In this document: one piece after another, positions 1,570-49,306 of the stretch | How the letters are laid out: every line of letters starts with the position of its first letter | How positions within the stretch are numbered: position 1 is the stretch's first letter | Sequence record: PZ386979.1 | DNA length: 51,874 nucleotides | Direction: 5' to 3' (one strand) | DNA from: a phage | Program-made: the position numbers and the translations under genes | Notes under the pieces: model-generated | What the model was told of the DNA's origin: nothing | The model's database searches: none | What the model saw: only the letters and a program-made list of their open reading frames with translations

Positions 1570-2076
1570 ATGAGAAACGCGATCTATGATATAGCCAAAG
1601 ATTACCTTTACTACGATGGCGAGTTCGTCAGATGGAAGGTTCACATTAAGAAAAGCCGATTCCATCCTGGAGATATTGCTGGAACAGTGGACGGAGACGG
1701 ATATATCAGGATCGCGTTGTTCAGACAGTCGGTGTTAGCGCATCGGTTTGCTTGGGAATGGGACAATGGCCCAATACCGGAAGGAATGCAAATTGACCAC
1801 ATAGACCACGTAAGAACAAACAACAAGAGAGACAATTTAAGGATTGTAACGCATGAGCAGAACGGGCAAAACACGAAAAAATCAATCAGAAATACCAGCG
1901 GATGTGTTGGGGTTTATTGGTATGCGTCGCGAGAAAAATGGTGGTCGTTTATAGGTAACGTAGCAAAAGGAACTCGCAAATCACTTGGCTATTATTCTGA
2001 CTGGTTTGATGCCGTTTGCGCCAGAAAGCGAGCGGAGTTTGAACTTGGTTATCACGAAAACCACGGCAAGAAATAG
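1570..2076 (+). CDS. HNH homing endonuclease
   Basis: 168 aa; HNH motif DHIDHVRTNNKRDNLRIVTHEQN; GAGGAG RBS; start abuts terL stop; paralog of 35974..36447 (shared LAHRxxWE, IDHI, LGYHENHGK). Confidence 0.85.
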   Translation: MRNAIYDIAKDYLYYDGEFVRWKVHIKKSRFHPGDIAGTVDGDGYIRIALFRQSVLAHRFAWEWDNGPIPEGMQIDHIDHVRTNNKRDNLRIVTHEQNGQNTKKSIRNTSGCVGVYWYASREKWWSFIGNVAKGTRKSLGYYSDWFDAVCARKRAEFELGYHENHGKK

Positions 2077-2092
2077 CACGAATTGCTAAAAG
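2073..2092 (+). promoter_or_regulatory. conserved intergenic element, variant ATAGCACGAATTGCTAAAAG
   Basis: Contains HNH stop TAG; same variant recurs at 47922; followed by TATAAT (2097..2102) and terminator. Confidence 0.5.
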
Positions 2093-2105
2093 AAAGTATA
2101 ATCAA

Positions 2106-2130
2106 AGGCTGGCAAATCCAGCCTTTTTTA
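2106..2130 (+). terminator. rho-independent terminator
   Basis: AGGCTGG-caaat-CCAGCCT followed by TTTTTTATT. Confidence 0.6.
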
Positions 2131-2144
2131 TTGGAGGAAAGATA

Positions 2145-3425
2145 ATGAGTAAATCACGAATCGTTAAGGCTGACGGCTATAACGAGATCTTTAAAGGCGA
2201 GAATTGCAAATCGCGAGTAGAGCAACCATTCTACATGCAATCAATGCCATATAAGACACTTGCTGACTTTTACGAAAAAGACGGACTGGCAAAAAGGATT
2301 ATTGACGTGATACCAGAAGAAATGGTCTCCCCTGGCTTCACTGTTGACGGAGTGGCAGACGAGGCGGCATTCCGTTCTTTGTGGGATGAGAAGCGATTGA
2401 ATGCAAAAATTATTGATGCGCTTTGCTGGTCGCGTTTGTTTGGTGGATCTGCAATCATTGCTCTTGTTCAGGATGGGCGAGCGCTCAAATCACCTGTAAA
2501 GCCTGGTGCCATGTTGGAGGATGTGCGAGTTTACGATCGCTATCAGATTCGCGTTGAAGCGCGCGAAACTAATCCCCGCAAGGTTCGCTATGGTGAGCCA
2601 GTGCTTTACACTGTAACGCCAGGAGAAGACTTGCCGGAATACCAGGTACACTACACGCGCGTTTGCATTATCGACGGTGAGCGGATACCTAACGCAAAGC
2701 GACGCAGCAATGACGGCTGGGGTGAGTCAGTTCTTAACAAGCGGCTTGTTGAGGCTATTGTTGATTATAACTATTGTGAAACATTAGCTACGCAATTATT
2801 GCGAAGAAAACAACAGGCAGTATGGAAGGCCAAAGGTCTTGCTGACTTGTGCGATGATGAGGAGGGTGTTAGCGCGGCACGCTTGAGACTTGCGCAGGTT
2901 GACGACGAGGGCGGCGTTGGCAAGGCCATTGGTATTGATGCTGAGGATGAGGAATATGATGTTCTTAACTCTGACATTAGCGGCGTTGATTCTTTTCTGG
3001 AAAAGAAAATGGATCGCATCGTTTCCCTTTCAGGTATTCATGAAATCATCCTGAAAAATAAAAACGTTGGCGGAGTTAGCGCAAGCCAAAACACGGCGCT
3101 TGAAACATTCTATAAACTTATTGAGCGAAAACGCGTCGAGGATTACAAGCCTATCCTTGAATTTCTATTGCCGTTCATCATTAGTGAGCAGGAATGGAGC
3201 ATTGAGTTTTCACCTTTGAGCGTACCTAGCGATAAAGATCAGGCTGAAATTCTGAATAAGAATATCGACTCAATCAGCAAGGCTATTGATGGTCAGTTCC
3301 TTGATGTTGAAGAAGCGCGCGACACGTTGCGAGCAATCGCACCAAGCGTTAAACTAAAGGACACCAATAAAATCAAGCTGCCGGAGCCAACTGAGCCGGA
3401 GCCAGGCACACAGGGGAATGAGTAA
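2145..3425 (+). CDS. portal protein (putative)
   Basis: 426-aa ORF with GGAGGA RBS immediately after terminase and terminator; size and position typical of siphovirus portal. Confidence 0.6.
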   Translation: MSKSRIVKADGYNEIFKGENCKSRVEQPFYMQSMPYKTLADFYEKDGLAKRIIDVIPEEMVSPGFTVDGVADEAAFRSLWDEKRLNAKIIDALCWSRLFGGSAIIALVQDGRALKSPVKPGAMLEDVRVYDRYQIRVEARETNPRKVRYGEPVLYTVTPGEDLPEYQVHYTRVCIIDGERIPNAKRRSNDGWGESVLNKRLVEAIVDYNYCETLATQLLRRKQQAVWKAKGLADLCDDEEGVSAARLRLAQVDDEGGVGKAIGIDAEDEEYDVLNSDISGVDSFLEKKMDRIVSLSGIHEIILKNKNVGGVSASQNTALETFYKLIERKRVEDYKPILEFLLPFIISEQEWSIEFSPLSVPSDKDQAEILNKNIDSISKAIDGQFLDVEEARDTLRAIAPSVKLKDTNKIKLPEPTEPEPGTQGNE

Positions 3426-4189
3426 TGAAAGTGAAGGGCGTCGTTAAACAATGGCGCTTTCCTGAAGCAAGCGAGCGGCAATTTAGCCGCTCAATTCAGG
3501 AGGCAATTAGAGAACTTGTAGTTCTCATGCGCAAGCGAACAAAAGCGATGAAGTTTGATGCAACAGATAATGAGATCAACAGCGCAGAAGATGAAATTAA
3601 CAGCCTGGCAACTGACCTTATAGCTGGCATTGTTTCAACTCTTCCCGCAATCGCGTTGACAATTTATAAATTCAATGCGAAGCAGTTTATCAATGTTGCC
3701 AAGTCAACTGGCGGAAAGGATAATACGGCGGTAATTGTTTTGATCGCGGTTGGCGCTAACGCTAACGAGGACTGGTATCAGACGCTATACGGTCAATGGC
3801 ACGGGCTTACAGAATCATCGCTAAGGAAGTTATTCACAAACATTGTTTCTGATTGGTCAACAAACATTCGAAATGCAAACTTTCGCGGAAGCAATGATAA
3901 ACAGGTTAATGATCTTGCAGAAAAGAGATTTGCTGTTTATAGCTCTTGGGGTAAAACGAGATCAGAAAACATTATCGGCGCGTGGAATAGTCGCCTGATG
4001 CGCCAGCGCCTTTATGATGCTAAGGTGACTCATTATTTCTGGCATGGAATGTTAGATGATAGAGAGCGATTGCAGCATGTGTTATGGGAAGGTAAAAGAA
4101 TAGCGCTTGATGCAATTCATGATTTCCCTGGTGAGCCGTGGGGTTGCCGTTGCTGGGCGATTCCAGATTGGAATAATAAAGGAGAGTAA
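3425..4189 (+). CDS. minor head / head morphogenesis protein (putative)
   Basis: 254 aa, start overlaps portal stop (TAATG); position after portal as in SPP1 gp7 / Mu F-like genes; not confirmed by motif. Confidence 0.45.
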   Translation: MKVKGVVKQWRFPEASERQFSRSIQEAIRELVVLMRKRTKAMKFDATDNEINSAEDEINSLATDLIAGIVSTLPAIALTIYKFNAKQFINVAKSTGGKDNTAVIVLIAVGANANEDWYQTLYGQWHGLTESSLRKLFTNIVSDWSTNIRNANFRGSNDKQVNDLAEKRFAVYSSWGKTRSENIIGAWNSRLMRQRLYDAKVTHYFWHGMLDDRERLQHVLWEGKRIALDAIHDFPGEPWGCRCWAIPDWNNKGE

Positions 4190-4192
4190 TTA

Positions 4193-5305: not shown

Positions 5306-5317
5306 GGAGAAATAAAC

Positions 5318-5830: not shown

Positions 5831-5875
5831 TAAATATGGCGCTCACTGAGCGCCTTTTTTATATTTGGAGTTATC

Positions 5876-6315: not shown

Positions 6316-6347
6316 AATTATGTTGCACGTTTAACAAAAAATGCTAT
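6316..6347 (-). promoter_or_regulatory. conserved element in inverse orientation in capsid gene leader
   Basis: Plus strand reads GTTTAACAAAAAATGCTAT (6329..6347), 7 nt after -10-like AATTAT; upstream of 6394 gene. Confidence 0.4.
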
Positions 6348-6393
6348 CATTGGGGCGTTACATACTAACAGCCTTTATATATGGAGGAAGAAA

Positions 6394-9359: not shown

Positions 9360-10022
9360 ATGCATTTACCAAATGGATCGCAAATTTTCGTTGAGAGCAA
9401 TCGCGGAAGCGAAATCCAAGCAACAGCAGTGTCAAACGCCAAAGATCCTGTTTTCACTGTTGCATCTGGCGGCACTGCGTACAAGAAAGGTGATTATGTG
9501 ATCATCACTGCGTCTTCTTGGGGTAAGCTGATTGATCGTGTTATGCGTGTAAAGGCTAACGGTGAAGAAACAAGCGTGACTCTTGAAGGTGTAGATACTA
9601 CTGATCAGAACGTTTTCCCGACTGGCGGTACTGCATCTTTTGCCAAAATTGATGCATGGACTGAGATCCCTTGCGTTCAGGATTTGTCGCAGGACGGCGG
9701 CGAACAGCAATACTACACTTATCAGTGTTTGGCAGACGATCAGGAACAGCAGTTACCTACCTATAAGAGCGCCGTTTCTCTTACCTACACTTTTGCGCAC
9801 GAATACGATAACGCGATCTATCCGCTATTGCGTTCAGCAGATGAATCAGGCGCTGTAACGGCGCTTCGCATGTATGTACCAAAAGCAAAAGAGATGCGTT
9901 GCTGGGCTGGTGTCCTTTCGTTTAACGAAATCCCGCAGACCACAGTTAACGAAATGGAAACCGTTTCCCTGTCTGTATCCCTGAAAGGTCGATTCACCTT
10001 CCTACCTTCTCAAGTAGCATAA
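9360..10022 (+). CDS. major tail protein (putative)
   Basis: 220 aa; followed by strong terminator GGGGCGTTGCGCCCC plus T-run; precedes tail chaperone genes. Confidence 0.55.
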   Translation: MHLPNGSQIFVESNRGSEIQATAVSNAKDPVFTVASGGTAYKKGDYVIITASSWGKLIDRVMRVKANGEETSVTLEGVDTTDQNVFPTGGTASFAKIDAWTEIPCVQDLSQDGGEQQYYTYQCLADDQEQQLPTYKSAVSLTYTFAHEYDNAIYPLLRSADESGAVTALRMYVPKAKEMRCWAGVLSFNEIPQTTVNEMETVSLSVSLKGRFTFLPSQVA

Positions 10023-10028
10023 TCACAA

Positions 10029-10051
10029 GGGGCGTTGCGCCCCTTTTTTTG
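10029..10051 (+). terminator. rho-independent terminator after major tail gene
   Basis: GGGGCG-ttg-CGCCCC followed by TTTTTTT. Confidence 0.7.
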
Positions 10052-10063
10052 TTACTGTACAAT
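10035..10063 (+). promoter_or_regulatory. sigma70-like promoter overlapping terminator (TTGCGC-17-TACAAT)
   Basis: -35-like TTGCGC 10035..10040 within terminator stem, -10 TACAAT 10058..10063; would drive tail chaperone genes. Confidence 0.35.
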
Positions 10064-10089
10064 CATGCTACACGATTCATAATCAATTC

Positions 10090-10108
10090 TTTTAACAAAA
10101 AGTGCTAT
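10090..10108 (-). promoter_or_regulatory. conserved element in inverse orientation in tail chaperone leader
   Basis: Plus strand TTTTAACAAAAAGTGCTAT directly upstream of RBS of 10122 gene; 6 nt after CATAAT (10078..10083). Confidence 0.4.
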
Positions 10109-15954: not shown

Positions 15955-15981
15955 AGTCGCGCGTTGCGCGGCTTTTTTTTT
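15955..15981 (+). terminator. rho-independent terminator after gpI
   Basis: CGCGC-gtt-GCGCG then TTTTTTTTT. Confidence 0.55.
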
Positions 15982-16026
15982 GCCCGTATAATTCAACAAA
16001 TCAAATAGCACAAAAGGTGAAAAAGC

Positions 16027-28785: not shown

Positions 28786-29259
28786 TTAGCAATTAGTGCT
28801 TTCAGGTTTATACAGGAATCCGCCAGGTTCATAATCTGACATTCTTACCACTCGCAACATTTCACGCTTATCACATCTCTTTGTGAGCGGTTTGCCATTG
28901 GAATCAAATCGCAGGTCTGGACGACAAAATGATGCGCGATAGCCTTGACATCCATATTTTTTGTAATCGTTATGCACCTTTTGAGCGCCAGATGCTGAAA
29001 TCATACCGCGAACACGCCACTGGTTTACAGTTTGCTGGCTAACGTTTAGACGTTTTGCCATTGCTGATACACTTCCGTAATACTCAATAAGGATGTCAAG
29101 TCGCGCTTTTAGTCCGGCGCGCACTTCATCTTTTAAAACATAGTATCCTGTAGGGCGTTTGCGTTTCTTCTTATCCTTGCCTCGTCTGGTTCCGTTATTG
29201 CCATTAATTGTGCGCTTGTCAATCTTGCCAGTTGATACTGCGATTCGCTGTTCTTTCAT
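28786..29259 (-). CDS. HTH DNA-binding regulator (Cro/YdaS-like)
   Basis: 157 aa; MAKRLNVSQQTVNQWRVRG helix-turn-helix; basic N-terminus; divergent from helicase gene. Confidence 0.55.
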   Translation of the reverse strand: MKEQRIAVSTGKIDKRTINGNNGTRRGKDKKKRKRPTGYYVLKDEVRAGLKARLDILIEYYGSVSAMAKRLNVSQQTVNQWRVRGMISASGAQKVHNDYKKYGCQGYRASFCRPDLRFDSNGKPLTKRCDKREMLRVVRMSDYEPGGFLYKPESTNC

Positions 29260-29272: not shown

Positions 29273-29316
29273 ATAGCATTTTTTGTTAAACGATGATTTA
29301 ATGATTGTGTATTATA
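29273..29316 (+). promoter_or_regulatory. conserved element plus -10 (helicase promoter)
   Basis: ATAGCATTTTTTGTTAAAC, 19-nt spacer, ATTATA/TATTAT; sits between divergent HTH-regulator and helicase genes. Confidence 0.5.
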
Positions 29317-29348
29317 CACGCCAAATGGCATTACTCAAAGGTTTTAGA

Positions 29349-31394: not shown

Positions 31395-31800
31395 TAAAGG
31401 CGATTATCTGGAGTTTTACGAAAGAGATCCGACAGATACACTAAAAGAAGAATCGCACCAGATAGGCGCGTTTCAATGGGTAACTTATGCTCATCCTGAA
31501 TTACTGGCATGGCATACGAAAAACGAGGGCGACAAGGGGATCGCCACCGCAATGATGGATCAGCAAGCTGGGCTTGTTAAGGGCGTAAGTGATTTTATCA
31601 TCCTGATTGGATTAAAAGGTCGTTACCCGTTCGCGGCAATTGAGATGAAGCGCGTCAATAAGTCCGGCAAGGGTAAGGCTTCACCAGTCAGCAAGGACCA
31701 AAAAGCCTTCTTGCGTCGTGTGCGTGAGCTTGGCGGATTCGCTGCCGTAACATACGGATATAAGCAATTCATGATCGCGGTAGAATACATGATGAAATAG
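31381..31800 (+). CDS. VRR-NUC family nuclease
   Basis: 139 aa; PD-(D/E)XK-like D...E.K pattern (VSDFIILIG ... AIEMKRV); overlaps helicase 3' end. Confidence 0.65.
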   Translation: MAMTDKGDYLEFYERDPTDTLKEESHQIGAFQWVTYAHPELLAWHTKNEGDKGIATAMMDQQAGLVKGVSDFIILIGLKGRYPFAAIEMKRVNKSGKGKASPVSKDQKAFLRRVRELGGFAAVTYGYKQFMIAVEYMMK

Positions 31801-31840
31801 CACTTTTTGTTAAAACAGGCGCGAAGGATTGCGCCATAAT
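31797..31840 (+). promoter_or_regulatory. conserved element plus -10 (dam promoter)
   Basis: ATAGCACTTTTTGTTAAAAC containing VRR-NUC stop TAG; spacer holds inverted repeat GGCGC...GCGCC; -10 CATAAT. Confidence 0.55.
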
Positions 31841-32580: not shown

Positions 32581-32838
32581 ATGCAGAAAGAAAGAAGAGT
32601 TTTACTTAATGAAGATGGCGAATTTCTTTTGTATCGCGCTATGGTATGCGATGCACTTGATAAAAACCCTAACGTGAAAAAGATGATTGATTGCGATCCG
32701 TGGGAATTTTCAAGCGCATTAGATATGAGCTTTGAGGAGACAAAAAAACTCCCGCTTGAAAAATGGAACGAGCAAATCAGAAATGACATGCAAGAATTTG
32801 TCGATTCGTGGAATTTTCAGCACGGAATGATCCACTAA
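32581..32838 (+). CDS. hypothetical protein
   Basis: 85 aa; start ATG 32581 with GGAGC RBS after dam stop; stop abuts conserved element. Confidence 0.45.
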   Translation: MQKERRVLLNEDGEFLLYRAMVCDALDKNPNVKKMIDCDPWEFSSALDMSFEETKKLPLEKWNEQIRNDMQEFVDSWNFQHGMIH

Positions 32839-32881
32839 TAGCACTTTTTGTTAAAACGCCCGACCTTGTGTCGGGCATAAT
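32838..32881 (+). promoter_or_regulatory. conserved element plus -10
   Basis: Element abuts TAA stop; spacer inverted repeat GCCCGAC...GTCGGGC; -10 CATAAT. Confidence 0.55.
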
Positions 32882-32913
32882 TATTTCATCAAAACGAACA
32901 AGAGGAAAATAAA

Positions 32914-38439: not shown

Positions 38440-38483
38440 ATAATACCGCACCAATGCTACCCGCATTTAACAAAAAATGCTAT
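38440..38483 (-). promoter_or_regulatory. conserved element plus -10 (upstream of DUF3987-like gene)
   Basis: Minus-sense ATAGCATTTTTTGTTAAA containing upstream stop TAG; 20-nt spacer; TATTAT; then AAGGAG RBS. Confidence 0.5.
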
Positions 38484-39115: not shown

Positions 39116-39159
39116 ATTATGCCAGGCTTTTACACCTGGCTTTTAACAAAAAGTGCTAT
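39116..39159 (-). promoter_or_regulatory. conserved element plus -10
   Basis: Minus-sense ATAGCACTTTTTGTTAAAA with stop TAG inside; spacer inverted repeat GCCAGG...CCTGGC; CATAAT. Confidence 0.55.
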
Positions 39160-40514: not shown

Positions 40515-40557
40515 ACTATACCAAGTTTGCGAAATATTGTTTAACAATTCGTGCTAT
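40515..40557 (-). promoter_or_regulatory. conserved element (variant ATAGCACGAATTGTTAAAC) plus -10 TATAGT
   Basis: Follows TGA of tiny ORF; 18-nt spacer; TATAGT; GAGGA RBS. Confidence 0.5.
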
Positions 40558-40658: not shown

Positions 40659-40940
40659 CTAATTAATACCCACCACGTTAAAATTTACAGCTTTTGTTGC
40701 GCTAAACACATACGCTTCAACAGCGCCGCCAAATACACGAATTTTACCCTGGCCGTACTGCGCATTCATATTTCGCCAAACCGTTCTATTAGAGCAGAAT
40801 GCGCTACCAGTCTTAATAAGCGTATCCATCTCTTTTCTTAGATCGCGATAGTCCAGCCAGAATCTAAAGGCACGCTGTTTAATTCTCGCCGCCTTGATTT
40901 TTTCTCTTGCGCTATTGAAATCATTCTTTTCGTATGCCAT
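40659..40940 (-). CDS. hypothetical protein
   Basis: 93 aa; basic; in leftward early operon. Confidence 0.45.
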   Translation of the reverse strand: MAYEKNDFNSAREKIKAARIKQRAFRFWLDYRDLRKEMDTLIKTGSAFCSNRTVWRNMNAQYGQGKIRVFGGAVEAYVFSATKAVNFNVVGIN

Positions 40941-41137
40941 TAAATGATCTCCATGTATGTTTCAAAGCCATTTAACTTGAACAGGCCGTTTTCACATTTG
41001 CGCACGTTCCAAGTTAGCCCTGAGTGGTACGCCTCCATATCATCAAGGTCAATGGTGATTTCAGCACCTTTCTTAAACAAACCTTTTTCGTGAGACTTGT
41101 CGCGCTTAACAACTTTAACATCAACCTGATTTTCCAT
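40940..41137 (-). CDS. hypothetical protein
   Basis: 65 aa; GAGGA RBS; downstream of conserved element and -10 (41169..41212). Confidence 0.45.
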   Translation of the reverse strand: MENQVDVKVVKRDKSHEKGLFKKGAEITIDLDDMEAYHSGLTWNVRKCENGLFKLNGFETYMEII

Positions 41138-41168
41138 CTTTAAATCCTCGCTTGTTGTCGATGCGTGT

Positions 41169-41212
41169 AATATACCAATCAGAGGCGCATCGGTTTTAAC
41201 AAAAAGTGCTAT
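41169..41212 (-). promoter_or_regulatory. conserved element plus -10
   Basis: Minus-sense ATAGCACTTTTTGTTAAAAC abutting TAA stop; 18-nt spacer; TATATT. Confidence 0.5.
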
Positions 41213-42041: not shown

Positions 42042-42085
42042 AATGTACCCGATCAGGCGGATTCAGTTTTAACAAAAAGTGCTAT
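42042..42085 (-). promoter_or_regulatory. conserved element plus -10 (leftward early promoter)
   Basis: Minus-sense ATAGCACTTTTTGTTAAAAC; 18-nt spacer; TACATT; CAGGAG RBS; first gene of leftward early block. Confidence 0.5.
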
Positions 42086-42381
42086 TTGCTGACTGGTCAT
42101 TATTCCTTCTATTCCATTAATCAGGAATAACAGGAATAATTCATTCGCGATCACCTGGATTGTGAGACTTTGAGTTTGATCAATTTTAATCAGTTGATTA
42201 ACTTTTTGTGTGGAGGGGATGGAGAAACGCGGCCCTCTTGCATCCTTTCCGGCAATCCTGGCGCGCGCATCTGTTATTTCTGTTCCCCATGTTATCTCAA
42301 ATAAGCCTCCGCACTTTTAGATAACAGAATCGGCGTTCATCAACAAAAAGAACAAAATAAAATTTATATATATACCAATAA

Positions 42382-42396
42382 AATCAATAAGTTAGT
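42382..42396 (+). repeat. AATCAATAAGTTAGT 15-mer (copy 2)
   Basis: Identical to 21041..21055. Confidence 0.6.
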
Positions 42397-42626
42397 TATA
42401 TATGTATTTATATTTGTTATTTACTGTTGAGCTTGTTCCATGGGTATATGGTGGGTGTTGATGATTCCTTCATTTAACATTTGTACTTTTTATGCGGTTA
42501 TATATATAGATTTTGCGGCATTATCGAGACAACCAGTGAACGAGATTGAACGAGCTTTAAAATCAATCACTTGCGCGCAATTTTGTTATCGCGTCAAAAA
42601 AAGATGTTATTAGAACGAAAAATCAG

Positions 42627-42655
42627 TTGACTACCTGGCTGTGAGTATTGATAAT
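42627..42655 (+). promoter_or_regulatory. sigma70-like early promoter (TTGACT-17-GATAAT) for rightward early operon
   Basis: -35 TTGACT 42627..42632, -10 GATAAT 42650..42655; upstream TTAGAACGAAAAA block shared with promoter at 21298. Confidence 0.6.
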
Positions 42656-43460: not shown

Positions 43461-43726
43461 TGAATAAGGCATTAATTGGAGTTTTGATTGCAATCGCTAC
43501 CCTGACCGGATGCGAAAAGGCATCTGAATCAACAGTTGTCGTAGGAGTGGAGTCAGATTTTAAAGTCGGTCGCCTGTTTACTGTTGATGGATGCACTGCG
43601 TACCGATTCTATGATAACGGTCACGCGATCTATTACACCAACTGCAAGGGCACGACTAGCTGGGAAGTGTCGAAAAGCAACGGCAAGGTAACGACAACAG
43701 AACATATGACAGTGGAGACAAAATAG
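43460..43726 (+). CDS. early lipoprotein (putative)
   Basis: 88 aa; signal peptide with lipobox LTGC; stop TAG inside conserved element. Confidence 0.5.
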   Translation: MNKALIGVLIAIATLTGCEKASESTVVVGVESDFKVGRLFTVDGCTAYRFYDNGHAIYYTNCKGTTSWEVSKSNGKVTTTEHMTVETK

Positions 43727-43766
43727 CACTTTTTGTTAAAACTCAAAAACGATAACCAGGCATAAT
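43723..43766 (+). promoter_or_regulatory. conserved element plus -10
   Basis: ATAGCACTTTTTGTTAAAAC containing lipoprotein stop TAG; 18-19 nt spacer; CATAAT. Confidence 0.55.
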
Positions 43767-44791: not shown

Positions 44792-44944
44792 ATGGCTACA
44801 TGGATTTTGCTGATTCTTATGATTGATGGCGGCGTTGACCATATCGAAATGAATAGCCAGCAATCTTGCATTGAGGCACGAGAGCAGATCAAGAACAACA
44901 ACAGGTTTTATGCGTACACTCACACGCTATGTATTAAGAAATAG
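44792..44944 (+). CDS. small membrane peptide (putative)
   Basis: 50 aa MATWILLILMIDGG...; GAGGTGAGAG RBS; stop TAG is part of a conserved element copy. Confidence 0.35.
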   Translation: MATWILLILMIDGGVDHIEMNSQQSCIEAREQIKNNNRFYAYTHTLCIKK

Positions 44945-44983
44945 CACTTTTTGTTAAAACTCAAATGTGGGGCCAGGTATAAT
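44941..44983 (+). promoter_or_regulatory. conserved element plus -10
   Basis: Element contains TAG of 44792..44944; 17-nt spacer; TATAAT inside GGCC...GGCC inverted repeat. Confidence 0.55.
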
Positions 44984-45013
44984 GGCCTCACTTTCAACGA
45001 AGGAGATAAAACG

Positions 45014-45477: not shown

Positions 45478-45685
45478 GCGCGTCAAGCACAGGTTTACTG
45501 ATAACCACGGCGACGCGATTGATGTATACAAGTTCGGCGATCGCGTGTTTATTGATGGCACGTTTGAAGGTGGTCGTAGGCCGGATTTTAGGTCGATACT
45601 TACCGTTGACCAAGTGCGCAAGCTGGCAGATAAGTTAAATGATCTGGCAGATGAAATAGAATACAAGCAAATCCATTTTAATTGA
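45464..45685 (+). CDS. hypothetical protein
   Basis: 73 aa; overlaps upstream gene end. Confidence 0.4.
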   Translation: MKTNKRVKHRFTDNHGDAIDVYKFGDRVFIDGTFEGGRRPDFRSILTVDQVRKLADKLNDLADEIEYKQIHFN

Positions 45686-45696
45686 TAGGTTTGATA

Positions 45697-46410: not shown

Positions 46411-46416
46411 TTATAA

Positions 46417-46608
46417 ATGGCTGACTTTATGCATCAAATGATTGTTGTATTTAAGGGCAGTGAAGATGAAGAGGTTCGCGAATGCTTCACCATTGAGAAA
46501 TCATACAGCGCATCTTTAACCAGTTTTGGCAACATATCTATGATTGATGATAATGGCGATCCGTGGATTTTTGAAGATGATACGGATTGCTTTGAGATTA
46601 AAGAATAG
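46417..46608 (+). CDS. hypothetical small acidic protein
   Basis: 63 aa; highly acidic; stop TAG inside conserved element. Confidence 0.45.
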   Translation: MADFMHQMIVVFKGSEDEEVRECFTIEKSYSASLTSFGNISMIDDNGDPWIFEDDTDCFEIKE

Positions 46609-46648
46609 CACTTTTTGCAAAAACAGATTATCGGGCTTGCGGTATAGT
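46605..46648 (+). promoter_or_regulatory. conserved element (ATAGCACTTTTTGCAAAAAC) plus -10 TATAGT
   Basis: Contains stop TAG; spacer/-10 within inverted repeat GGGCTT...AAGCCC. Confidence 0.5.
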
Positions 46649-46679
46649 AAGCCCATCAACAACAAACGAGGATTAAATC

Positions 46680-46943
46680 ATGGCTAACAAGATCGAGTTT
46701 TTTAAAGCGGTAGACATTATCGACGGCGCGCCTAGCTTCTTTGCTATCCATTCTATTGACGGCAAGGATATTGGGTACAACGTTATCCGTCGAGATGGAA
46801 TATCAAAACTTAGTGACCTGGTAGGCCATATTGTGTCAATCGGGAAATGCGCATGGCCCGATTCGCCACGAGAGCCGCGCCGCCGCGACATGGTAGAGCC
46901 TGTTCTGCTTTACACTCTGGTAGTAGAAGGAGAAAATAAATGA
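46680..46943 (+). CDS. hypothetical protein
   Basis: 87 aa; GAGGA RBS; downstream of conserved element and -10. Confidence 0.45.
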   Translation: MANKIEFFKAVDIIDGAPSFFAIHSIDGKDIGYNVIRRDGISKLSDLVGHIVSIGKCAWPDSPREPRRRDMVEPVLLYTLVVEGENK

Positions 46944-47140
46944 TTTGGTTACTTGCTTTTTTGGTTGTTTTTCTTTACATTTCAGGATTATTCACGTTCC
47001 GCGCGTTGGTGAAAACATGCGATTGCACGGATAAAGATCAGCCTCTTGTTCTGATGTTCTGGTTTGTGTGGTTTTGGGTTGTGTGGTTTTGGGTTGCGCT
47101 TTATCAGATTGTACGGGATAAAAGCGGATTCAAGTGGTGA
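46940..47140 (+). CDS. small membrane protein (Trp/Phe-rich TMD)
   Basis: 66 aa; two hydrophobic helices; contains perfect 15-bp tandem duplication encoding VWFWVVWFWV. Confidence 0.45.
   Translation: MIWLLAFLVVFLYISGLFTFRALVKTCDCTDKDQPLVLMFWFVWFWVVWFWVALYQIVRDKSGFKW
47066..47095 (+). repeat. perfect 15-bp tandem duplication (GTGTGGTTTTGGGTT x2) inside membrane protein gene
   Basis: Two adjacent identical 15-mers, in frame, encoding VWFWV VWFWV. Confidence 0.8.
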
Positions 47141-47334
47141 TTCTTACTATAGCGCATTCACGCAGTGCGCTATGTTGAGATAACAACATGAGATCATGAA
47201 GATGCGAAACTTCGAAAAAATCGTATCCAAAAAGAAGCGATACAGCTACCACGAGCACCAAGAGATGAATCAACGCTATCGCAATAAGCGCCAGCGCAAA
47301 GGTAAACATTCCGGTAAACATGGAGAAAATCAAT

Positions 47335-47925
47335 ATGAAACGAGACATTATCATCCTTAACGGACCGCCAGGAGTTGGCAAAGATACGCTTGCCGCATAC
47401 TTAACGGGCCATCGTTACGCAGCGGTTAAAGCGTCGTTTAAACAGCCGATGTTTGATATTGCATTCTCCATGCTTGGCGTTTACAGATATGACGAGTTCA
47501 TTGATCTGTATAACGACCGCGAGCAGAAAGAAAAGCCTCAAGCAATCTTGCAAGGCAAGTCTCCGCGACAATTCATGATTTGGATTAGTGAAGAAGTCAT
47601 GAAGCCAGCTTTTGGCGAGCAATATTTTGGGAATCGCATGGTTGAGCAGGTACACGAGATGTACAGAGATTTAGCTGTTGTAATTAGTGATGGAGGATTC
47701 CCTGAAGAAATCAAGCCGCTCGTTAAGGCAGGCCATGAAGTTCACATTTGCCGACTGCATCGCGAAGGATTCACGTTTGATGGCGATTCGCGAAACTATA
47801 TTGACCTGAGCGGATACCATCACCGAGTCAAGCATTACGACTTCACAATGATTGATGGCGAGCCAGAAAAGACTGTTGACGAGATCATCAAAACGGTGCA
47901 GTGGAAACACATTAAGATCAAATAG
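47335..47925 (+). CDS. P-loop nucleotide kinase (dNMP kinase / polynucleotide kinase-like)
   Basis: Start ATG 47335 behind GGAGAAAA RBS; Walker A GPPGVGKDT resembles the GxxxSGKDT loop of phage dNMP kinases. Confidence 0.6.
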   Translation: MKRDIIILNGPPGVGKDTLAAYLTGHRYAAVKASFKQPMFDIAFSMLGVYRYDEFIDLYNDREQKEKPQAILQGKSPRQFMIWISEEVMKPAFGEQYFGNRMVEQVHEMYRDLAVVISDGGFPEEIKPLVKAGHEVHICRLHREGFTFDGDSRNYIDLSGYHHRVKHYDFTMIDGEPEKTVDEIIKTVQWKHIKIK

Positions 47926-47965
47926 CACGAATTGCTAAAAGCGTGGCGCAATGCCTCGCTATAAT
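47922..47965 (+). promoter_or_regulatory. conserved element variant (ATAGCACGAATTGCTAAAAG) plus -10 TATAAT
   Basis: Contains kinase stop TAG; 18-nt spacer; TATAAT. Confidence 0.55.
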
Positions 47966-47995
47966 GCAAACACCAATCAACGAGAGGAAATCATC

Positions 47996-48394
47996 ATGGT
48001 AGAGTTAAACGACATTCGCGTTGGAACAAAATTTCGCGTAACCTGGGCAGATAAATATTGCGGAGTTAGCAAGGGCCAGGTTGTTACTGTGGATAGCATT
48101 TATCGCGGATGCAGCAAAGACTTTCGCCGACCACGCATCAAGAATGGCTATATCATTACTCGACGACTTGGCTTTGATCATTATTGCGTAGTGGCAAAAG
48201 GCGTTTTGATTGAGCTTAAGCGAATCAGCGATCATCGCGGCTGCCATGTTAAGACAATGAAAACACCATTTCAGCGAGCGCGATACGATGCGCGCAGGAT
48301 GCGCCGTCTTGCACGAAACGCGATCAAGTTCAAAAAGCATGGTGGTAACTTTTACCTAATGTACAAAGGGATTGCGCGAAATGCTGGAAAATAA
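47996..48394 (+). CDS. hypothetical basic protein
   Basis: Start ATG 47996 behind GAGAGGAAA RBS (longer track ORF begins upstream of predicted -10 at 47960..47965); Arg/Lys-rich. Confidence 0.45.
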   Translation: MVELNDIRVGTKFRVTWADKYCGVSKGQVVTVDSIYRGCSKDFRRPRIKNGYIITRRLGFDHYCVVAKGVLIELKRISDHRGCHVKTMKTPFQRARYDARRMRRLARNAIKFKKHGGNFYLMYKGIARNAGK

Positions 48395-48512
48395 CAACAA
48401 CGCAACCAATCCAAAGCCGCCATTTGATTTTCATGAAATCATGATTGTGTTATTCTTGATTCTCTTAGTTGTTTATTCAGTGAGGGCCGCAATATGGTTT
48501 TTAATGCACTAA
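48381..48512 (+). CDS. small membrane peptide (putative)
   Basis: 43 aa with TMD IMIVLFLILLVVYSV; overlaps neighbouring genes; not in ORF track. Confidence 0.25.
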   Translation: MLENNNNATNPKPPFDFHEIMIVLFLILLVVYSVRAAIWFLMH

Positions 48513-48757
48513 AACGAATCTTTAAACCTGAATACCGGATCGTTGCTTGCACAGAATGCAAGATTTATTATCTGCAACGCCGCCGCGTTATTAGTGGGGA
48601 TTGGGAATATCTGACTGATGATGCTTTCGGCTTTTGGGCTATGGAGTTCAATAGCTACAGCGAAGCGCGTGAGTACGCTAAAAAGTTGCACAAGTTCAGA
48701 CCTTACAAGCTGCGTTTGCTGGTTGTCAAAAAATGCGATGTGTTGGATCACGAATGA
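48494..48757 (+). CDS. hypothetical protein
   Basis: 87 aa; CxxC pair (CTEC). Confidence 0.4.
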   Translation: MVFNALKRIFKPEYRIVACTECKIYYLQRRRVISGDWEYLTDDAFGFWAMEFNSYSEAREYAKKLHKFRPYKLRLLVVKKCDVLDHE

Positions 48758-49263
48758 AAAGAGTAATTATCATTTTTATTGCCATTATCGCTGGTTGCTA
48801 CCTGGCTTATAATTATAGCGGCATTGTTGAGTCAATCGGCAGGTTGATTATCTTCATGGCTGGCGGGTATGCTGGCTATTATGATGGATTCGAAAACGGA
48901 AAGCGTTACATGCTTACCGGAAAAAGAAGTAATGTTAACCGCGCCGCTTCGGTGGCGCTAAAAGGAGGAAACAAAATGGCTAAAAGCAATCGTAAAATGT
49001 TGATTAACGCATTCGAAAAGGCGGCGCTTGAGCGTGGTTGGAATGACTCATTTCACACAGCAAACTGTATCCGCCGTTACGGATTCAAGAATTGCCGATC
49101 CTGGGCGCGTCAAATGGCTTCATGGTATGATCTTGATGCGCATTACCTTGATATGGATTGCGCCCTGGTTGAAATGATTGAGCAGGCAGCATTAGAGGAT
49201 CGACCATTAACGCAATCTGATTTTGACGATTTTGTGCGCGATGAAATCTATTACATGAGCTAA
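48754..49263 (+). CDS. membrane/lipoprotein-like protein (putative)
   Basis: Start ATG 48754 (ATGA overlap); N-terminal hydrophobic segment with lipobox-like IIAGC; stop abuts conserved element. Confidence 0.45.
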   Translation: MKRVIIIFIAIIAGCYLAYNYSGIVESIGRLIIFMAGGYAGYYDGFENGKRYMLTGKRSNVNRAASVALKGGNKMAKSNRKMLINAFEKAALERGWNDSFHTANCIRRYGFKNCRSWARQMASWYDLDAHYLDMDCALVEMIEQAALEDRPLTQSDFDDFVRDEIYYMS

Positions 49264-49306
49264 TAGCACTTTTTGTTAAAACTTCCGCGAGGGCATTTGT
49301 TAAAGT
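49263..49306 (+). promoter_or_regulatory. conserved element with weak -10-like TAAAGT
   Basis: Element abuts TAA stop; 18 nt later TAAAGT; partial second core TTTGTTAAAG in spacer. Confidence 0.4.

What the first reader, a model, noticed from the sequence alone, without database searches (positions are those of the whole stretch)
2073..49306. A ~20-bp conserved element (ATAGCACTTTTTGTTAAAAC) in at least 17 copies, fused to upstream stop codons and set 17-20 bp before -10-like hexamers
Copies read in the direction of downstream transcription at 29273, 31797, 32838, 43723, 44941, 46605, 47922, 49263 (plus) and 20911, 38466, 39141, 40539, 41193, 42066 (minus); variants CGAATTG at 2073, 47922, 40539. 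In 12 copies the TAG/TAA/TGA stop of the upstream ORF lies inside or abuts the element. In most forward copies a hexamer resembling TATAAT (CATAAT, TATAAT, TATAGT, TATATT) follows after 17-20 nt, then an RBS and start codon. No good -35 exists at canonical spacing, so the element itself may substitute for it (activator site or UP-like element). Two more copies (6329, 10090) sit inverted inside the leaders of the capsid and tail-chaperone genes. Stop-codon fusion and placement between small hypervariable early ORFs recall the promoter/stem-loop cassettes thought to mediate modular shuffling in T4-type phages.
Basis: seen in the sequence. Interest (0 to 1): 0.8.

Follow-up and report, generated by a model that had tools for sequence, protein, structure and literature searches.

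The report
Phage promoters built on host marboxes
The repeated 20-base element of this T1-like phage matches the binding site ("marbox") of the host stress and antibiotic-resistance regulators MarA/SoxS/Rob, placed as in known activator-dependent host promoters, so the phage probably runs most early and middle genes on a host stress regulator.

Summary
ATAGCACTTTTTGTTAAAAC occurs 14 times at 3 or fewer mismatches (0.02 expected), and about 20 times counting variants.

The window is a complete Hanrivervirus genome (Drexlerviridae, T1-like). The element matches the published E. coli marbox GCAHWWWWTGYYAAA 15/15. Sixteen copies lie forward, 17-18 bp before a sigma-70 -10 hexamer and with no -35. 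That is the 18-bp geometry I measured at micF, a structurally solved class II MarA/SoxS/Rob/RamA promoter.

The same architecture holds in T1, Rtp and TSK1 (59 of 71 consensus sites; gap 18 in 50). The marbox core is also enriched in TLS, AAS23 and Vc1. The columns that vary in the phage are the degenerate marbox columns.

No AraC-family protein is detectable in the phage. Its one recognisable regulator is Cro-like.

Four further copies sit in the late region in repression-type positions. One reversed copy forms the spacer of the conserved capsid promoter, which resembles the E. coli rob promoter.

Most cassettes also carry a hairpin, and a stop codon is usually fused to the element.

Binding and activator dependence are inferred, not shown. 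I found no prior report, but the open-access library I could search omits the T1, Rtp and TLS genome papers.

The parts
20885..20927 (-). Class II marbox promoter cassette: marbox 20908-20927 (ATAGCACTTTTTGCTAAACG, 14/14 consensus positions), 17-nt gap, -10 TATAGT 20885-20890. Drives the cor-like superinfection-exclusion gene 20626-20853.
   Evidence: gene name from the Fulano1 annotation
22417..22459 (+). Class II marbox promoter: marbox ACAGCACAAATAGCTAAACA (14/14), 17-nt gap, TATAAT 22454-22459, with a hairpin enclosing the -10. It abuts the recE stop and drives 22498-22776, then erf and ssb. The divergent marbox sequence is conserved in T1 (31443) and TSK1 (31296).
28759..28802 (-). Marbox variant AAAGCACTAATTGCTAAAAA (12/14), 18-nt gap, TATCAT 28759-28764. 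The -10 lies in the loop of a T-run terminator hairpin, so this is a promoter embedded in a terminator. Drives the primase gene.
   Evidence: orthologous sites in T1 (35995-) and TSK1 (33860-)
29273..29315 (+). Class II marbox promoter of the helicase gene: marbox 29273-29292, 17-nt gap, TATTAT 29310-29315. The marbox is conserved in six genera. Its -10 overlaps, face to face, the -10 of the divergent canonical promoter of the Cro-like regulator gene.
31797..31840 (+). Class II marbox promoter: exact 20-mer, 18-nt gap holding the hairpin ggcgcga/ttgcgcc, CATAAT 31835-31840. The TAG stop of the VRR-NUC gene lies inside the marbox. Drives the dam methylase gene.
32838..32881 (+). Class II marbox promoter: exact 20-mer, 18-nt gap holding the hairpin gcccgac/gtcgggc, CATAAT 32876-32881.
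38440..38483 (-). Class II marbox promoter: marbox 38464-38483, 18-nt gap, TATTAT 38440-38445 enclosed by a hairpin. An upstream TAG stop lies inside the marbox. Drives the 545-aa helicase/ATPase gene.
39116..39159 (-). Class II marbox promoter: marbox 39140-39159, 18-nt gap holding the hairpin ccaggt/gcctgg, CATAAT 39116-39121. The TAG stop of the cytosine methylase gene lies inside the marbox.
40515..40557 (-). Class II marbox promoter, GAATTG variant (14/14): marbox 40538-40557, 17-nt gap, TATAGT 40515-40520.
41169..41212 (-). Class II marbox promoter: exact 20-mer 41193-41212, 18-nt gap, TATATT 41169-41174. A TAA stop abuts the marbox.
42042..42085 (-). Class II marbox promoter: exact 20-mer 42066-42085, 18-nt gap, TACATT 42042-42047. 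This is the first promoter of the leftward arm of small early ORFs.
43723..43766 (+). Class II marbox promoter: exact 20-mer, 18-nt gap, CATAAT 43761-43766. A TAG stop lies inside the marbox.
44941..44983 (+). Class II marbox promoter: exact 20-mer, 17-nt gap, TATAAT 44978-44983, with a hairpin gaggcc/ggcctc-type stem enclosing the -10. A TAG stop lies inside the marbox.
46605..46648 (+). Class II marbox promoter: ATAGCACTTTTTGCAAAAAC (12/14), 18-nt gap, TATAGT 46643-46648. A TAG stop lies inside the marbox.
47922..47965 (+). Class II marbox promoter, GAATTG variant: 18-nt gap, TATAAT 47960-47965. A TAG stop lies inside the marbox.
49263..49306 (+). Class II marbox promoter: exact 20-mer, 18-nt gap, TAAAGT 49301-49306 enclosed by a hairpin. 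A TAA stop ends on marbox position 1.
6323..6350 (+). Late capsid-gene promoter: -35 TTGCAC 6323-6328, 16-bp spacer, extended -10 TGcTATCAT (TATCAT 6345-6350). The reversed marbox 6328-6347 is the spacer. Marbox positions 1-3 supply the TAT of the -10 and positions 4-6 supply the TGC. This is a repression-type position, centred at about -20.
   Evidence: similarity to the E. coli rob promoter; pbpG precedent (PMC12052159)
2073..2129 (+). Forward marbox 2073-2092 (the HNH-gene TAG stop lies inside it), then TATAAT 2097-2102 only 4 nt downstream, then terminator hairpin 2104-2126 before the portal gene. The marbox covers about -36 to -17 of that -10. This is not class II geometry; it is a repression-type position.
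   Evidence: Webervirus KP36 has a canonical TTGAAA-N17-CATAAT promoter at the same place
10035..10108 (+). Late promoter TTGCGC 10035-10040 / N17 / TACAAT 10058-10063, with its -35 inside the terminator of the major-tail gene. It is followed by the reversed marbox 10089-10108 at about +20 to +39, just before the ribosome-binding site of the tail-chaperone gene (10122).
   Evidence: the same arrangement is in T1; Rtp has a forward class II marbox promoter at this position
15964..16024 (+). Late promoter TTGCGC 15964-15969 / N17 / TATAAT 15987-15992, with its -35 in a terminator stem. It is followed by a degenerate marbox, ATAGCACAAAAGGTGAAAAA, at 16005-16024 (12/14), about +7 to +26, overlapping the ribosome-binding site of the J-like tail gene.
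   Evidence: homologous elements in T1 (25021) and TLS (24911)
28786..29259 (-). Context: gene for the conserved Cro-like HTH regulator (T1 gp23 / Rtp52 homologue). Its own promoter is canonical: on the minus strand, TTGAGT at 29338-29333, 16-bp spacer, TATAAT at 29316-29311. It is not an AraC-family protein.

Best explanation
The 20-bp element is a marbox. [quoted passage not shown]

In 16 cassettes the marbox lies forward, at about -50 to -31, 17-18 bp upstream of a sigma-70 -10 hexamer that has no -35. That is a class II marbox promoter. At such promoters the bound activator takes the place of the -35 contact and touches sigma region 4 and the alpha C-terminal domain.

These cassettes drive the two arms of small early ORFs and the DNA-metabolism genes. 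Rob is made constitutively and is the most likely factor in unstressed cells. MarA, SoxS or RamA would add input under antibiotic, oxidative or bile stress.

Four further marboxes lie in the late region, where a bound protein should hinder RNA polymerase rather than help it. One is the spacer of the capsid promoter. One covers the -35 and spacer region of the portal promoter. Two lie in the first 40 nt transcribed from the tail promoters.

Each cassette is compacted. The stop codon of the upstream gene is part of the marbox. The otherwise free 18-bp spacer usually holds, or is half of, a hairpin that would act on read-through RNA as a terminator or 3'-end stabiliser.

Shown here: the sequence match, geometry, family-wide conservation, absence of a detectable phage AraC homologue, and the statistical excess of hairpins. 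Inferred: which protein binds, activator dependence, transcription start sites, repression of late promoters, and the role of the hairpins.
For: 1. Match to a published consensus. The marbox given in PMC6900184, GCAHWWWWTGYYAAA, fits the phage core GCACTTTTTGTTAAA 15/15. It finds 20 sites at 1 or fewer mismatches in the window against 2.65 expected. TLS has 21 against 3.4, Pantoea phage AAS23 has 11 against 1.6, and Vc1 has 12 against 2.2. A 30-kb T4-like control has 2 against 0.96.

2. Match to the 20-bp consensus. AYNGCACNNWNNRYYAAAYN (recalled from Martin et al. 1999) gives 16-21 sites per genome at 13 or more of 14 specified positions, against 0.5-1 in shuffles.

3. Geometry. In window, T1, Rtp and TSK1, 59 of 71 such sites are followed by a TAnnnT-type hexamer. 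The gap is 18 nt in 50 cases, 17 in 8 and 19 in 1. G is at -14 in 47 of 59, and a C-A start-site dinucleotide lies 7 nt after the hexamer.

4. Direct comparison with micF. I fetched the E. coli micF promoter: ACAGCACTGAATGTCAAAAC, an 18-nt gap, TAGAAT, 7 nt, then the +1 G. It is 15/20 identical to the phage element and has the same gap. micF is the class II promoter solved by cryo-EM with Rob, SoxS and RamA, with the site centred at about -41 (PMC9178005, PMC9638938, PMC8811837). ChIP-seq in Salmonella places forward-orientation sites at about -41 (PMC10268841).

5. Pattern of variation. The phage columns that vary (8, 9, 10, 14, 19, 20) are all N or two-fold degenerate columns of the marbox. 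The variation obeys W, Y and R at positions 2, 10, 13, 14 and 15. None of the eight fully specified columns varies.

6. A distinct promoter class. The genome also has canonical -35/-10 promoters without marboxes at 42627, 21298, the regulator gene and the late promoters.

7. No phage activator found. A MarA/SoxS/Rob HMM against the six-frame translation gave a best E of 0.33. A Pfam scan of about 50 small ORFs found no AraC-family domain, while the MarA control scored 3e-19. The only recognisable regulator is Cro-like by Pfam and by fold.

8. Cross-family copy. An intact cassette precedes a native gene of the T4-like Klebsiella phage KP15, which lacks the T1-family gene set.

9. Late promoters. 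The capsid promoter (-35, 16 bp, TGn-extended -10) is conserved in five genera, and a reversed marbox forms its spacer in four of them. Its AACAAAAAATGCTATCAT is 16/18 identical to AGCAAAAAATGCTATTAT at the E. coli rob promoter. A marbox overlapping a promoter spacer is documented to give repression by MarA/SoxS/Rob at pbpG (PMC12052159).
Against: Nothing here shows protein binding, and no transcription start has been mapped for any of these phages in the literature I could search.

Class II marbox promoters in E. coli often keep activator-independent activity (lpxC, lpxL and rfaY in PMC12052159). The phage promoters have good -10 hexamers with G at -14, so they may work adequately without an activator.

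Rob is largely sequestered in unstressed cells (PMC9178005, PMC10268841), and MarA and SoxS are scarce, yet T1-like phages grow very well in ordinary broth.

Position 19 is mostly A in the phage, where the 1999 consensus gives Y. micF also has A there.

A small phage protein with no detectable similarity to AraC could bind the same site.

The repression reading rests on position alone. The reversed marbox also supplies the TGnTAT of an extended -10, so part of its conservation could be promoter sequence in its own right. Webervirus TSK1 keeps the capsid promoter with only a degenerate marbox.
Confidence: 0.7

Rival explanations
1. A phage-encoded DNA-binding protein recognises the element and activates these promoters, as a classical immediate-early to delayed-early cascade. 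The candidate is either the conserved Cro-like regulator, which is expressed from a canonical promoter next to a marbox, or an unrecognised small early protein. On this view the resemblance to the marbox is convergent or coincidental.
For: The regulator gene is conserved in all Drexlerviridae examined and has its own canonical promoter, TTGAGT-N16-TATAAT. A marbox lies at +12 to +31 of its leader. Most small early ORFs have no known function.
Against: The regulator has a single Cro/YdaS-type HTH (Pfam). Its AlphaFold model (pLDDT 86) matches all-alpha Cro proteins and nothing of the double-HTH AraC type. Such proteins bind palindromes as dimers. A 13-bp palindrome, GTGTATTATACAC (29307-29319), over its own -10 is a better candidate operator.

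No AraC-family domain was found in any ORF.

A chance match of a 14-position motif to the marbox, in the right orientation and with the right 18-bp gap, is roughly a 1-in-10,000 event by my estimate. The degenerate columns match too.

The same cassette occurs in a T4-like phage that lacks the T1-family genes.
Confidence: 0.12
2. RNA polymerase holoenzyme reads the element directly, with no activator. The element would be an unusual upstream or -35-substitute sequence, comparable to the extended consensus of T4 early promoters, combined with a G(-14)-assisted -10.
For: The -10 hexamers are good and G is at -14 in 47 of 59 sites. The element contains T and A tracts and a TTGYTA hexamer. Known class II marbox promoters keep basal activity (PMC12052159). 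T1-like phages grow well without stress inducers (general knowledge).
Against: TTGYTA is 22 bp from the -10, outside the 16-18 bp range. The hexamer at the canonical distance is AAAACn.

The invariant GCAC at about -47 to -44 is not a feature of UP elements, which are A/T-rich at -59 to -38.

The same genome uses ordinary TTGACT/TTGCGC -35 hexamers where it wants activator-independent promoters. This direct-recognition reading also gives no reason for reversed copies inside late promoters.
Confidence: 0.1
3. The element is mainly a recombination or RNA-level signal: a shared junction sequence for shuffling gene cassettes, as proposed for T4 promoter/stem-loop cassettes, or an RNA processing site together with the hairpin. 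Promoter activity would be secondary.
For: Homology blocks against Fulano1 and herni start or end within 0-2 nt of the marbox 5' edge at 38483, 41213, 43721, 44939 and 46604, and within 9 nt at 2064. A cassette has moved into a T4-like phage. Hairpins are strongly enriched next to the element, with a mean z of -2.5.
Against: Sixteen of 20 copies are co-oriented with the downstream gene at a fixed 17-18 bp from a -10 hexamer, with a fixed 55-62 nt to the start codon. A recombination site would not need this.

The replaced segments have only one end at a marbox. At least two carry HNH homing-endonuclease genes inserted at the stop-codon/marbox junction.

About a fifth of all gene junctions carry a marbox, so breakpoints at junctions will often coincide with one. 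No Rfam family matches.
Confidence: 0.05

Closest known systems
Class II MarA/SoxS/Rob/RamA-dependent promoters of Enterobacteria (type example micF; also lpxC, lpxL, rfaY)
   Same: The 20-bp asymmetric marbox with GCAC and YYAAA recognition elements. Forward orientation. An 18-bp gap to the -10, measured at micF, giving a site centre of about -41. No usable -35. A sigma-70-type -10.
   Different: The phage sites are far closer to consensus, and far more uniform, than host sites. There are 16 of them in 52 kb. The marbox is fused to the upstream stop codon. The spacer carries a hairpin. The owner is a virulent phage, not a stress regulon. Binding and activation are untested.
Marbox-mediated repression: pbpG (marbox over the promoter spacer; PMC12052159) and the rob promoter (reversed marbox between -35 and -10; Schneiders & Levy 2006, from memory)
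   Same: The capsid promoter has a reversed marbox as its spacer, and its spacer/-10 sequence is 16/18 identical to that of the rob promoter region. The portal and tail-gene marboxes lie between -36 and +39 of sigma-70-type promoters.
   Different: Repression here is inferred from position only. The tail-chaperone copy lies somewhat beyond the -35 to +25 window used for repressive sites in PMC12052159.
T4-type PeSL cassettes (promoter-early stem-loop; Arbiol et al. 2010, from memory)
   Same: A repeated compact unit of promoter plus stem-loop set between small, variable early ORFs. Mosaic boundaries lie at the unit, and the unit occurs in more than one phage lineage.
   Different: The promoter logic differs: a host-activator site instead of the T4 early consensus with its own -35. 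The hairpin lies inside or around the promoter rather than before it. Recombination at the element is not demonstrated.
T4 middle promoters (MotA box at -30 with AsiA sigma appropriation)
   Same: A phage promoter class in which a conserved box replaces the -35 and an activator contacts sigma region 4.
   Different: The box sequence and position differ: TGCTTtA at -30 against a marbox at -41. The T4 activator is phage-encoded, and no such protein is detectable here.

Membership tests
Class II marbox (MarA/SoxS/Rob/RamA) promoter | A 20-bp asymmetric site matching the marbox consensus (GCAHWWWWTGYYAAA; AYNGCACNNWNNRYYAAAYN) | tested here: met
   The core matches 15/15. The window has 20 sites at 1 or fewer mismatches against 2.65 expected. 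There are 16-21 sites per genome at 13 or more of 14 positions, against 0.5-1 in shuffles. Variable columns coincide with the degenerate columns.
Class II marbox (MarA/SoxS/Rob/RamA) promoter | Forward orientation, overlapping the -35 position, with the same distance to the -10 as a validated class II promoter | tested here: met
   The gap is 18 nt in 50 of 59 sites and 17 in 8. The micF gap measured here is 18 nt. The centre is about -40.5 from the inferred start, against -41 to -41.5 in PMC8811837, PMC9638938 and PMC10268841.
Class II marbox (MarA/SoxS/Rob/RamA) promoter | A sigma-70 -10 hexamer with a weak or absent -35 | tested here: met
   The -10 consensus is TAtaaT, with A2 and T6 required by my filter and G at -14 in 47 of 59 sites. 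The sequence at the -35 position is AAAACn.
Class II marbox (MarA/SoxS/Rob/RamA) promoter | Transcription starts about 7 nt after the -10 | not testable with these tools
   Only a conserved C(-1)A(+1) dinucleotide at that position supports it. I found no 5'-end data.
Class II marbox (MarA/SoxS/Rob/RamA) promoter | Binding of, and activation by, MarA, SoxS, Rob or RamA | not testable with these tools
   This needs EMSA or footprinting, in-vitro transcription, and mutant hosts.
Marbox-repressed promoter (pbpG / rob type) | A marbox overlapping the core promoter (spacer, -35 or -10) or the early transcribed region | tested here: met
   Capsid promoter: the marbox covers about -29 to -10. Portal promoter: about -36 to -17. 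J-like tail gene: about +7 to +26. Tail-chaperone gene: about +20 to +39.
Marbox-repressed promoter (pbpG / rob type) | Repression on activator binding | not testable with these tools
   Inferred from position and from the pbpG precedent.
T4-type PeSL mobile promoter/stem-loop cassette | A repeated promoter plus stem-loop unit between small ORFs of variable regions | tested here: met
   Sixteen cassettes are present. Their hairpins have a mean z of -2.5, and 61% are below -1.5.
T4-type PeSL mobile promoter/stem-loop cassette | A T4 early-promoter consensus with its own -35 | tested here: not met
   There is no -35. A marbox takes its place.
T4-type PeSL mobile promoter/stem-loop cassette | Recombination between cassettes that shuffles genes | tested here: inconclusive
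   Breakpoints fall at the marbox edge and a cassette is present in KP15. Only one end of each replaced block is at a marbox, and HNH insertions explain some of them.
UP element | An A/T-rich alpha-CTD site at -59 to -38 upstream of a functional -35 | tested here: not met
   The element spans about -50 to -31, has an invariant GCAC, and has no -35 downstream of it.
Sigma-54 promoter (TGGCAC-N5-TTGC) | GG at -24 and GC at -12, with fixed spacing | tested here: not met
   The element reads TAGCAC-N3/4-TTG, so GG is absent and the spacing is 1-2 nt short. A sigma-70 -10 follows it.
Phage-encoded RNA polymerase promoter | A phage RNA polymerase gene, with a conserved block running through the start site | tested here: not met
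   No polymerase gene is annotated in any of the annotated relatives. The conserved block ends 31 nt before the start site, and the -10 varies like a sigma-70 hexamer. The large ORFs of the window itself were not scanned.

The most novel reading that the evidence does not exclude
T1-like phages (Drexlerviridae) run their whole temporal programme on the host's MarA/SoxS/Rob/RamA stress regulators.

The regulator switches on about 16 early and middle promoters through class II marboxes. The same protein holds down the capsid, portal and tail promoters through marboxes placed inside or just after their cores.

Late genes are released when the regulator runs out. This could happen by titration on hundreds of replicated genomes, each carrying about 20 near-consensus sites. 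It could also happen through decay of the unstable MarA and SoxS after host shut-off.

Phage growth would then be coupled to bile, oxidative and antibiotic stress and to clinical mar/ram resistance mutations. Infection would also drain the regulator away from the host's efflux regulon.
Probability: 0.3. Interest if true: 0.9.

Novelty: new variant of a known kind. Interest (0 to 1): 0.8.

Why it matters
If the host regulators do bind, a large and medically used phage family depends on the transcription factors that cause multidrug resistance in its hosts. That family includes the Klebsiella Webervirus phages and the notorious laboratory contaminant T1.

This makes several things directly testable:
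- whether mar/ram/sox-overexpressing clinical strains are better or worse hosts;
- whether bile salts, salicylate or redox drugs tune phage growth;
- whether about 20 strong marboxes per genome copy act as a decoy that lowers efflux-pump expression during infection;
- how a virulent phage with no RNA polymerase or sigma factor of its own separates early from late transcription.

It would also supply a set of near-consensus, fixed-geometry class II promoters for studying MarA, SoxS and Rob, and a compact promoter/terminator cassette design.

Tried and rejected
- **Internal TTGYTA as the -35.** It is 22 bp from the -10, and no -10-like hexamer lies 16-18 bp after it.
- **Sigma-54.** The resemblance of TAGCACGAATTGCT to TGGCAC-N5-TTGC fails on the GG and on the spacing.
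- **UP element, MotA box, IHF/Fis/CRP sites.** All were considered by eye and none fits the invariant columns.
- **Phage AraC-family protein.** A home-made MarA/SoxS/Rob HMM against the six-frame translation found nothing. A Pfam scan of concatenated small ORFs found none, while the MarA control was positive.
- **Cro-like regulator as the binder.** Pfam, PHROGs, an AlphaFold model and a PDB fold search all give a Cro-type single HTH.
- **Known RNA family.** Rfam gave no hit.
- **Literature.** Ten full-text searches, including exact motif strings and marbox/MarA/SoxS/Rob combined with T1-like/Drexlerviridae terms, found nothing linking them. The T1, Rtp and TLS genome papers and the rob-repression papers are not held. 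GenBank annotations of T1, KP36 and others mark the hairpins as terminators and do not mark these promoters. KP15 labels its copy 'putative middle promoter; discovered using MEME'.
- **Host test with a Vibrio-labelled relative (Vc1).** It keeps the marboxes, but I could not verify its host assignment or which marbox-binding regulators that host has, so the test is uninformative.
- **Formal covariation test of the hairpins.** Not attempted, because stem positions shift between cassettes. I used shuffle z-scores instead.
- **Technical limit.** Only one newly fetched locus per script call reached the Python sandbox. TLS, AAS23 and Vc1 could therefore be analysed only with the pattern and alignment tools.

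Full report
**What the window is.** The 51,874-bp window is a complete, circularly permuted genome of a T1-like phage. It is 97% identical to Escherichia phage vB_EcoD_Fulano1 (Drexlerviridae, Tempevirinae, Hanrivervirus). Gene order is typical of the family. Late structural genes lie on the plus strand from 1 to about 20.6 kb. DNA-metabolism genes occupy the middle. Two divergent arms of small ORFs start from an AT-rich non-coding region at 42.1-42.6 kb.

**The observation.** ATAGCACTTTTTGTTAAAAC has 14 matches at 3 or fewer mismatches against 0.02 expected. With looser matching the CGAATTG/CTAATTG variants appear.

Three copies were missed: 28783-28802(-), 22417-22436(+) and a degenerate copy at 16005-16024(+).

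The stop codon of the upstream ORF is part of the element, or abuts it, in 12 copies. Usually TAG occupies element positions 2-4.

In 16 copies a TAnnnT-type hexamer follows after 17 or 18 nt. A C-A dinucleotide lies 7 nt further on, then a CA-rich leader of about 25 nt, a Shine-Dalgarno sequence and the start codon. The distance from element to start codon is typically 55-62 nt. There is no -35 at the canonical distance, and the TTGYTA inside the element is 22 bp from the -10.

**The element is family-wide.** T1 (Tunavirinae), Rtp (Braunvirinae), TLS (Tlsvirus), Klebsiella phage TSK1 (Webervirus), Pantoea phage AAS23 and Vc1 (Jhansiroadvirus) all carry 11-21 copies. In window, T1, Rtp and TSK1, where flanks were examined, 59 of 71 consensus matches are followed by a -10 hexamer. 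The gap is 18 nt in 50 cases, 17 in 8 and 19 in 1. G is at -14 in 47 of 59.

**What the element is.** Its invariant columns are ATAGCAC, TTG and TAAA. These are the recognition elements of the marbox, the asymmetric site bound as a monomer by the AraC-family activators MarA, SoxS and Rob (and RamA).

- The marbox quoted in PMC6900184, 5'-GCAHWWWWTGYYAAA-3', fits the phage core 15/15. Used as a search pattern it finds 20 sites in the window against 2.65 expected. A 30-kb stretch of a T4-like phage is not enriched (2 against 0.96).
- The older 20-bp consensus, which I recalled from Martin et al. 1999, gives 16-21 sites per T1-like genome against 0.5-1 in shuffles.
- The phage columns that vary (8, 9, 10, 14, 19, 20) are all degenerate in the marbox. 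The variation respects W, Y and R at positions 2, 10, 13, 14 and 15. None of the eight fully specified columns varies.
- A divergent copy at the recE/erf junction, ACAGCACAAATAGCTAAACA, differs from the phage consensus yet still meets the marbox consensus 14/14. It is conserved in T1 and TSK1. The constraint is therefore 'be a marbox', not 'be this repeat'.

I fetched the E. coli micF promoter, the class II promoter solved by cryo-EM with Rob, SoxS and RamA. It reads ACAGCACTGAATGTCAAAAC, 18 nt, TAGAAT, 7 nt, then the +1 G. It is 15/20 identical to the phage element, has the same final AAAAC, and has the same 18-nt gap. In the Rob complex the activator occludes sigma region 4 from the -35 and contacts sigma region 4 and the alpha C-terminal domain (PMC9178005). 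That explains why the phage cassettes need no -35.

By my rough estimate, a chance match of a 14-position motif to one of a few hundred known site types, in the right orientation and at the right gap, has a probability of about 1 in 10,000.

**Whose protein binds?** No AraC-family protein is detectable in the phage. An HMM built from MarA, SoxS and Rob, searched against all six-frame segments, gave a best E of 0.33. A Pfam scan of about 50 small ORFs gave no HTH_18 or HTH_AraC hit, while the MarA control scored 3e-19.

The one recognisable regulator (28786-29259, minus strand; the T1 gp23 / Rtp52 homologue) has a single Cro/YdaS-type HTH. A confident model (pLDDT 86) matches all-alpha Cro proteins only. 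A 13-bp palindrome over its own -10 (29307-29319) is a more natural operator for it.

The genome also has ordinary promoters with good -35 hexamers and no marbox. These are at 42627-42655 for the rightward early arm, at 21298-21325 for recE, at the regulator gene, and at several late promoters. The marbox cassettes therefore form a separate regulatory class.

An exact-match scan of IMG/VR found the 20-mer on contigs of 27-52 kb (nearly all 42-52 kb), with one exception. That exception is the 174-kb T4-like Klebsiella phage KP15. There a complete cassette precedes a native T4-type small ORF. It has the marbox, an 18-nt gap, TATAGT, a ggggta/tacccc hairpin and a CATCGAAAC leader. It is nearly identical to a Webervirus cassette. 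If that copy works, it works without T1-family proteins.

All of this points to host factors. Rob is constitutive and abundant, though partly sequestered (PMC9178005, PMC10268841). MarA, SoxS and RamA are stress-induced.

**The late-region copies.** These are not class II promoters.

- *Capsid promoter.* It is conserved in five genera as -35, 16 bp, and a TGn-extended -10. In the window it reads TTGCAC 6323-6328 and TGcTATCAT, with the hexamer at 6345-6350. In four of the five genera the spacer is a reversed marbox. Marbox positions 1-3 supply the TAT of the -10, and positions 4-6 supply the TGC. The phage sequence AACAAAAAATGCTATCAT is 16/18 identical to AGCAAAAAATGCTATTAT just upstream of the E. 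coli rob gene. From memory (Schneiders & Levy 2006), MarA represses rob through a reversed marbox between -35 and -10.
- *Portal promoter.* A forward marbox covers about -36 to -17 of a TATAAT (2097-2102). Webervirus KP36 has a plain TTGAAA-N17-CATAAT promoter at this position.
- *Tail promoters.* The tail-chaperone and J-like tail genes have sigma-70 promoters whose -35 lies inside the preceding terminator: TTGCGC-N17-TACAAT at 10035-10063 and TTGCGC-N17-TATAAT at 15964-15992. Marboxes follow at about +20 to +39 and +7 to +26.

T1 shows the same four placements. The simplest reading is that the factor which activates early and middle promoters hinders the late ones. That is inference from position only.

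**Hairpins.** For each cassette I folded the spacer, the -10 and 10 further nt. The mean z-score against shuffles was -2.5 over 59 cassettes, and 61% fell below -1.5.

There are two layouts. In one, a stem-loop lies wholly in the 18-bp spacer, often with a GAAA or AGGA loop, and ends at the -10. In the other, the stem encloses the -10.

Orthologous promoters in different genera have unrelated stems, and even different layouts. Structure, not sequence, is therefore what is kept.

At the primase promoter (28759-28802) the -10 sits in the loop of a true T-run terminator. Read-through RNA would terminate there, while RNA started inside would not. T1's GenBank record marks several of these hairpins as terminators.

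I take them to be terminators or 3'-end stabilisers for the upstream unit, packed into a spacer that a class II promoter leaves free. This is not shown.

**Mosaicism.** Against Fulano1 and herni, homology blocks begin or end within 0-2 nt of the marbox 5' edge at 38483, 41213, 43721, 44939 and 46604, and within 9 nt at 2064. In every case the marbox stays with its downstream genes.

This fits modules bounded by the cassette, as does the KP15 copy. It does not show recombination at the element, for three reasons:
- only one end of each replaced block is at a marbox;
- about a fifth of all gene junctions carry one;
- two of the blocks are HNH homing-endonuclease genes inserted at the stop-codon/marbox junction (ORF 1570-2076 is HNH_3, E = 2.5e-18; Fulano1 gp53).

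**Novelty and limits.** The marbox and both its activating and repressing placements are well known in bacteria. Their systematic use by a phage family is what appears to be new.

Ten full-text searches found no paper linking T1-like phages with marboxes or MarA/SoxS/Rob, and none containing the motif strings. Database annotations do not mark these promoters.

The library omits the subscription-journal genome papers of T1, Rtp and TLS, so an earlier mention of a conserved promoter motif cannot be excluded.

No binding, start-site or host-mutant data exist in what I could read. Class II marbox promoters often retain basal activity, so dependence of the phage on the regulators is less certain than binding itself.

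My estimates are:
- about 0.7 that the element functions as a host-regulator-bound class II promoter element;
- about 0.3 for the full activate-early, repress-late programme.

Noticed in passing
window 10035-10063 and 15964-15992: Late promoters are built into terminators. The -35 hexamer TTGCGC lies in the loop or 3' arm of the preceding gene's terminator hairpin, the T-run serves as the 17-bp spacer, and TACAAT or TATAAT follows. The same design is seen in T1, TLS and AAS23 after the major-tail gene.
   Followed up: partly
window 20950-21300 and 42086-42626: Two AT-rich non-coding regions share the motif AAATCAATAAGTTAG (21040-21054 and 42381-42395) and short tandem repeats (GTGATTTTGTGTGTCT, three copies, at 21101-21162). 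Each is followed by a canonical TTGACT promoter, at 21298 and 42627. They are possible replication-origin or immediate-early control regions.
   Followed up: partly
window 29307-29338: The helicase marbox promoter (-10 TATTAT on the plus strand) and the canonical promoter of the Cro-like regulator gene (-10 TATAAT on the minus strand) share one palindromic -10 region, GTGTATTATACAC. RNA polymerase can occupy only one of them at a time. This is a possible switch and the likely operator of the regulator.
   Followed up: partly
window 1542-2076: A 520-bp insertion relative to Fulano1 and herni carries an HNH homing-endonuclease gene (1570-2076; Pfam HNH_3, E = 2.5e-18). It is placed between the large-terminase gene and its marbox/terminator. 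Its right junction is 9 nt before the marbox, and its TAG stop lies inside the marbox.
   Followed up: yes
L056 10020-10105 (= Klebsiella phage KP15, NC_014036.1, 10020-10105, minus strand): A complete T1-type marbox cassette sits in a T4-like Slopekvirus genome in front of a T4-family small ORF. It is annotated 'putative middle promoter; discovered using MEME'. A decayed copy with a 1-bp deletion in the marbox lies 350 bp upstream. Other KP15 'middle promoters' lack the marbox.
   Followed up: partly
window 40940-41137 (-): The small ORF driven by the 41193-41212 marbox promoter matches Pfam PF25180, 'Phage antiviral trigger protein Gp54' (E = 1e-36). Other early ORFs match DUF7174, DUF7180 and DUF7299.
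   Followed up: no
phage records MG065636 and about 19 others: About twenty GenBank records named 'Campylobacter phage' with host Campylobacter jejuni are 90-93% identical to this E. coli T1-like phage. The host labels look doubtful. Likewise, 'Vibrio phage Vc1' is a Drexlerviridae genome that keeps the marboxes.
   Followed up: no
window, 12-30 nt after each predicted -10 (for example 32888-32913 and 41137-41162): The leaders share a CA-rich consensus, roughly CAUCGAAACGAA before the Shine-Dalgarno sequence. It is also conserved in T1, Rtp and TSK1. Its function, whether in translation or in stability, is unexplained.
   Followed up: no
window 3336-3355 (+) and 9633-9647 (+): Two marbox-consensus matches lie inside the portal and major-tail genes with no -10 at the right distance. 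Their number is consistent with the one or so chance match per genome seen in shuffles.
   Followed up: partly
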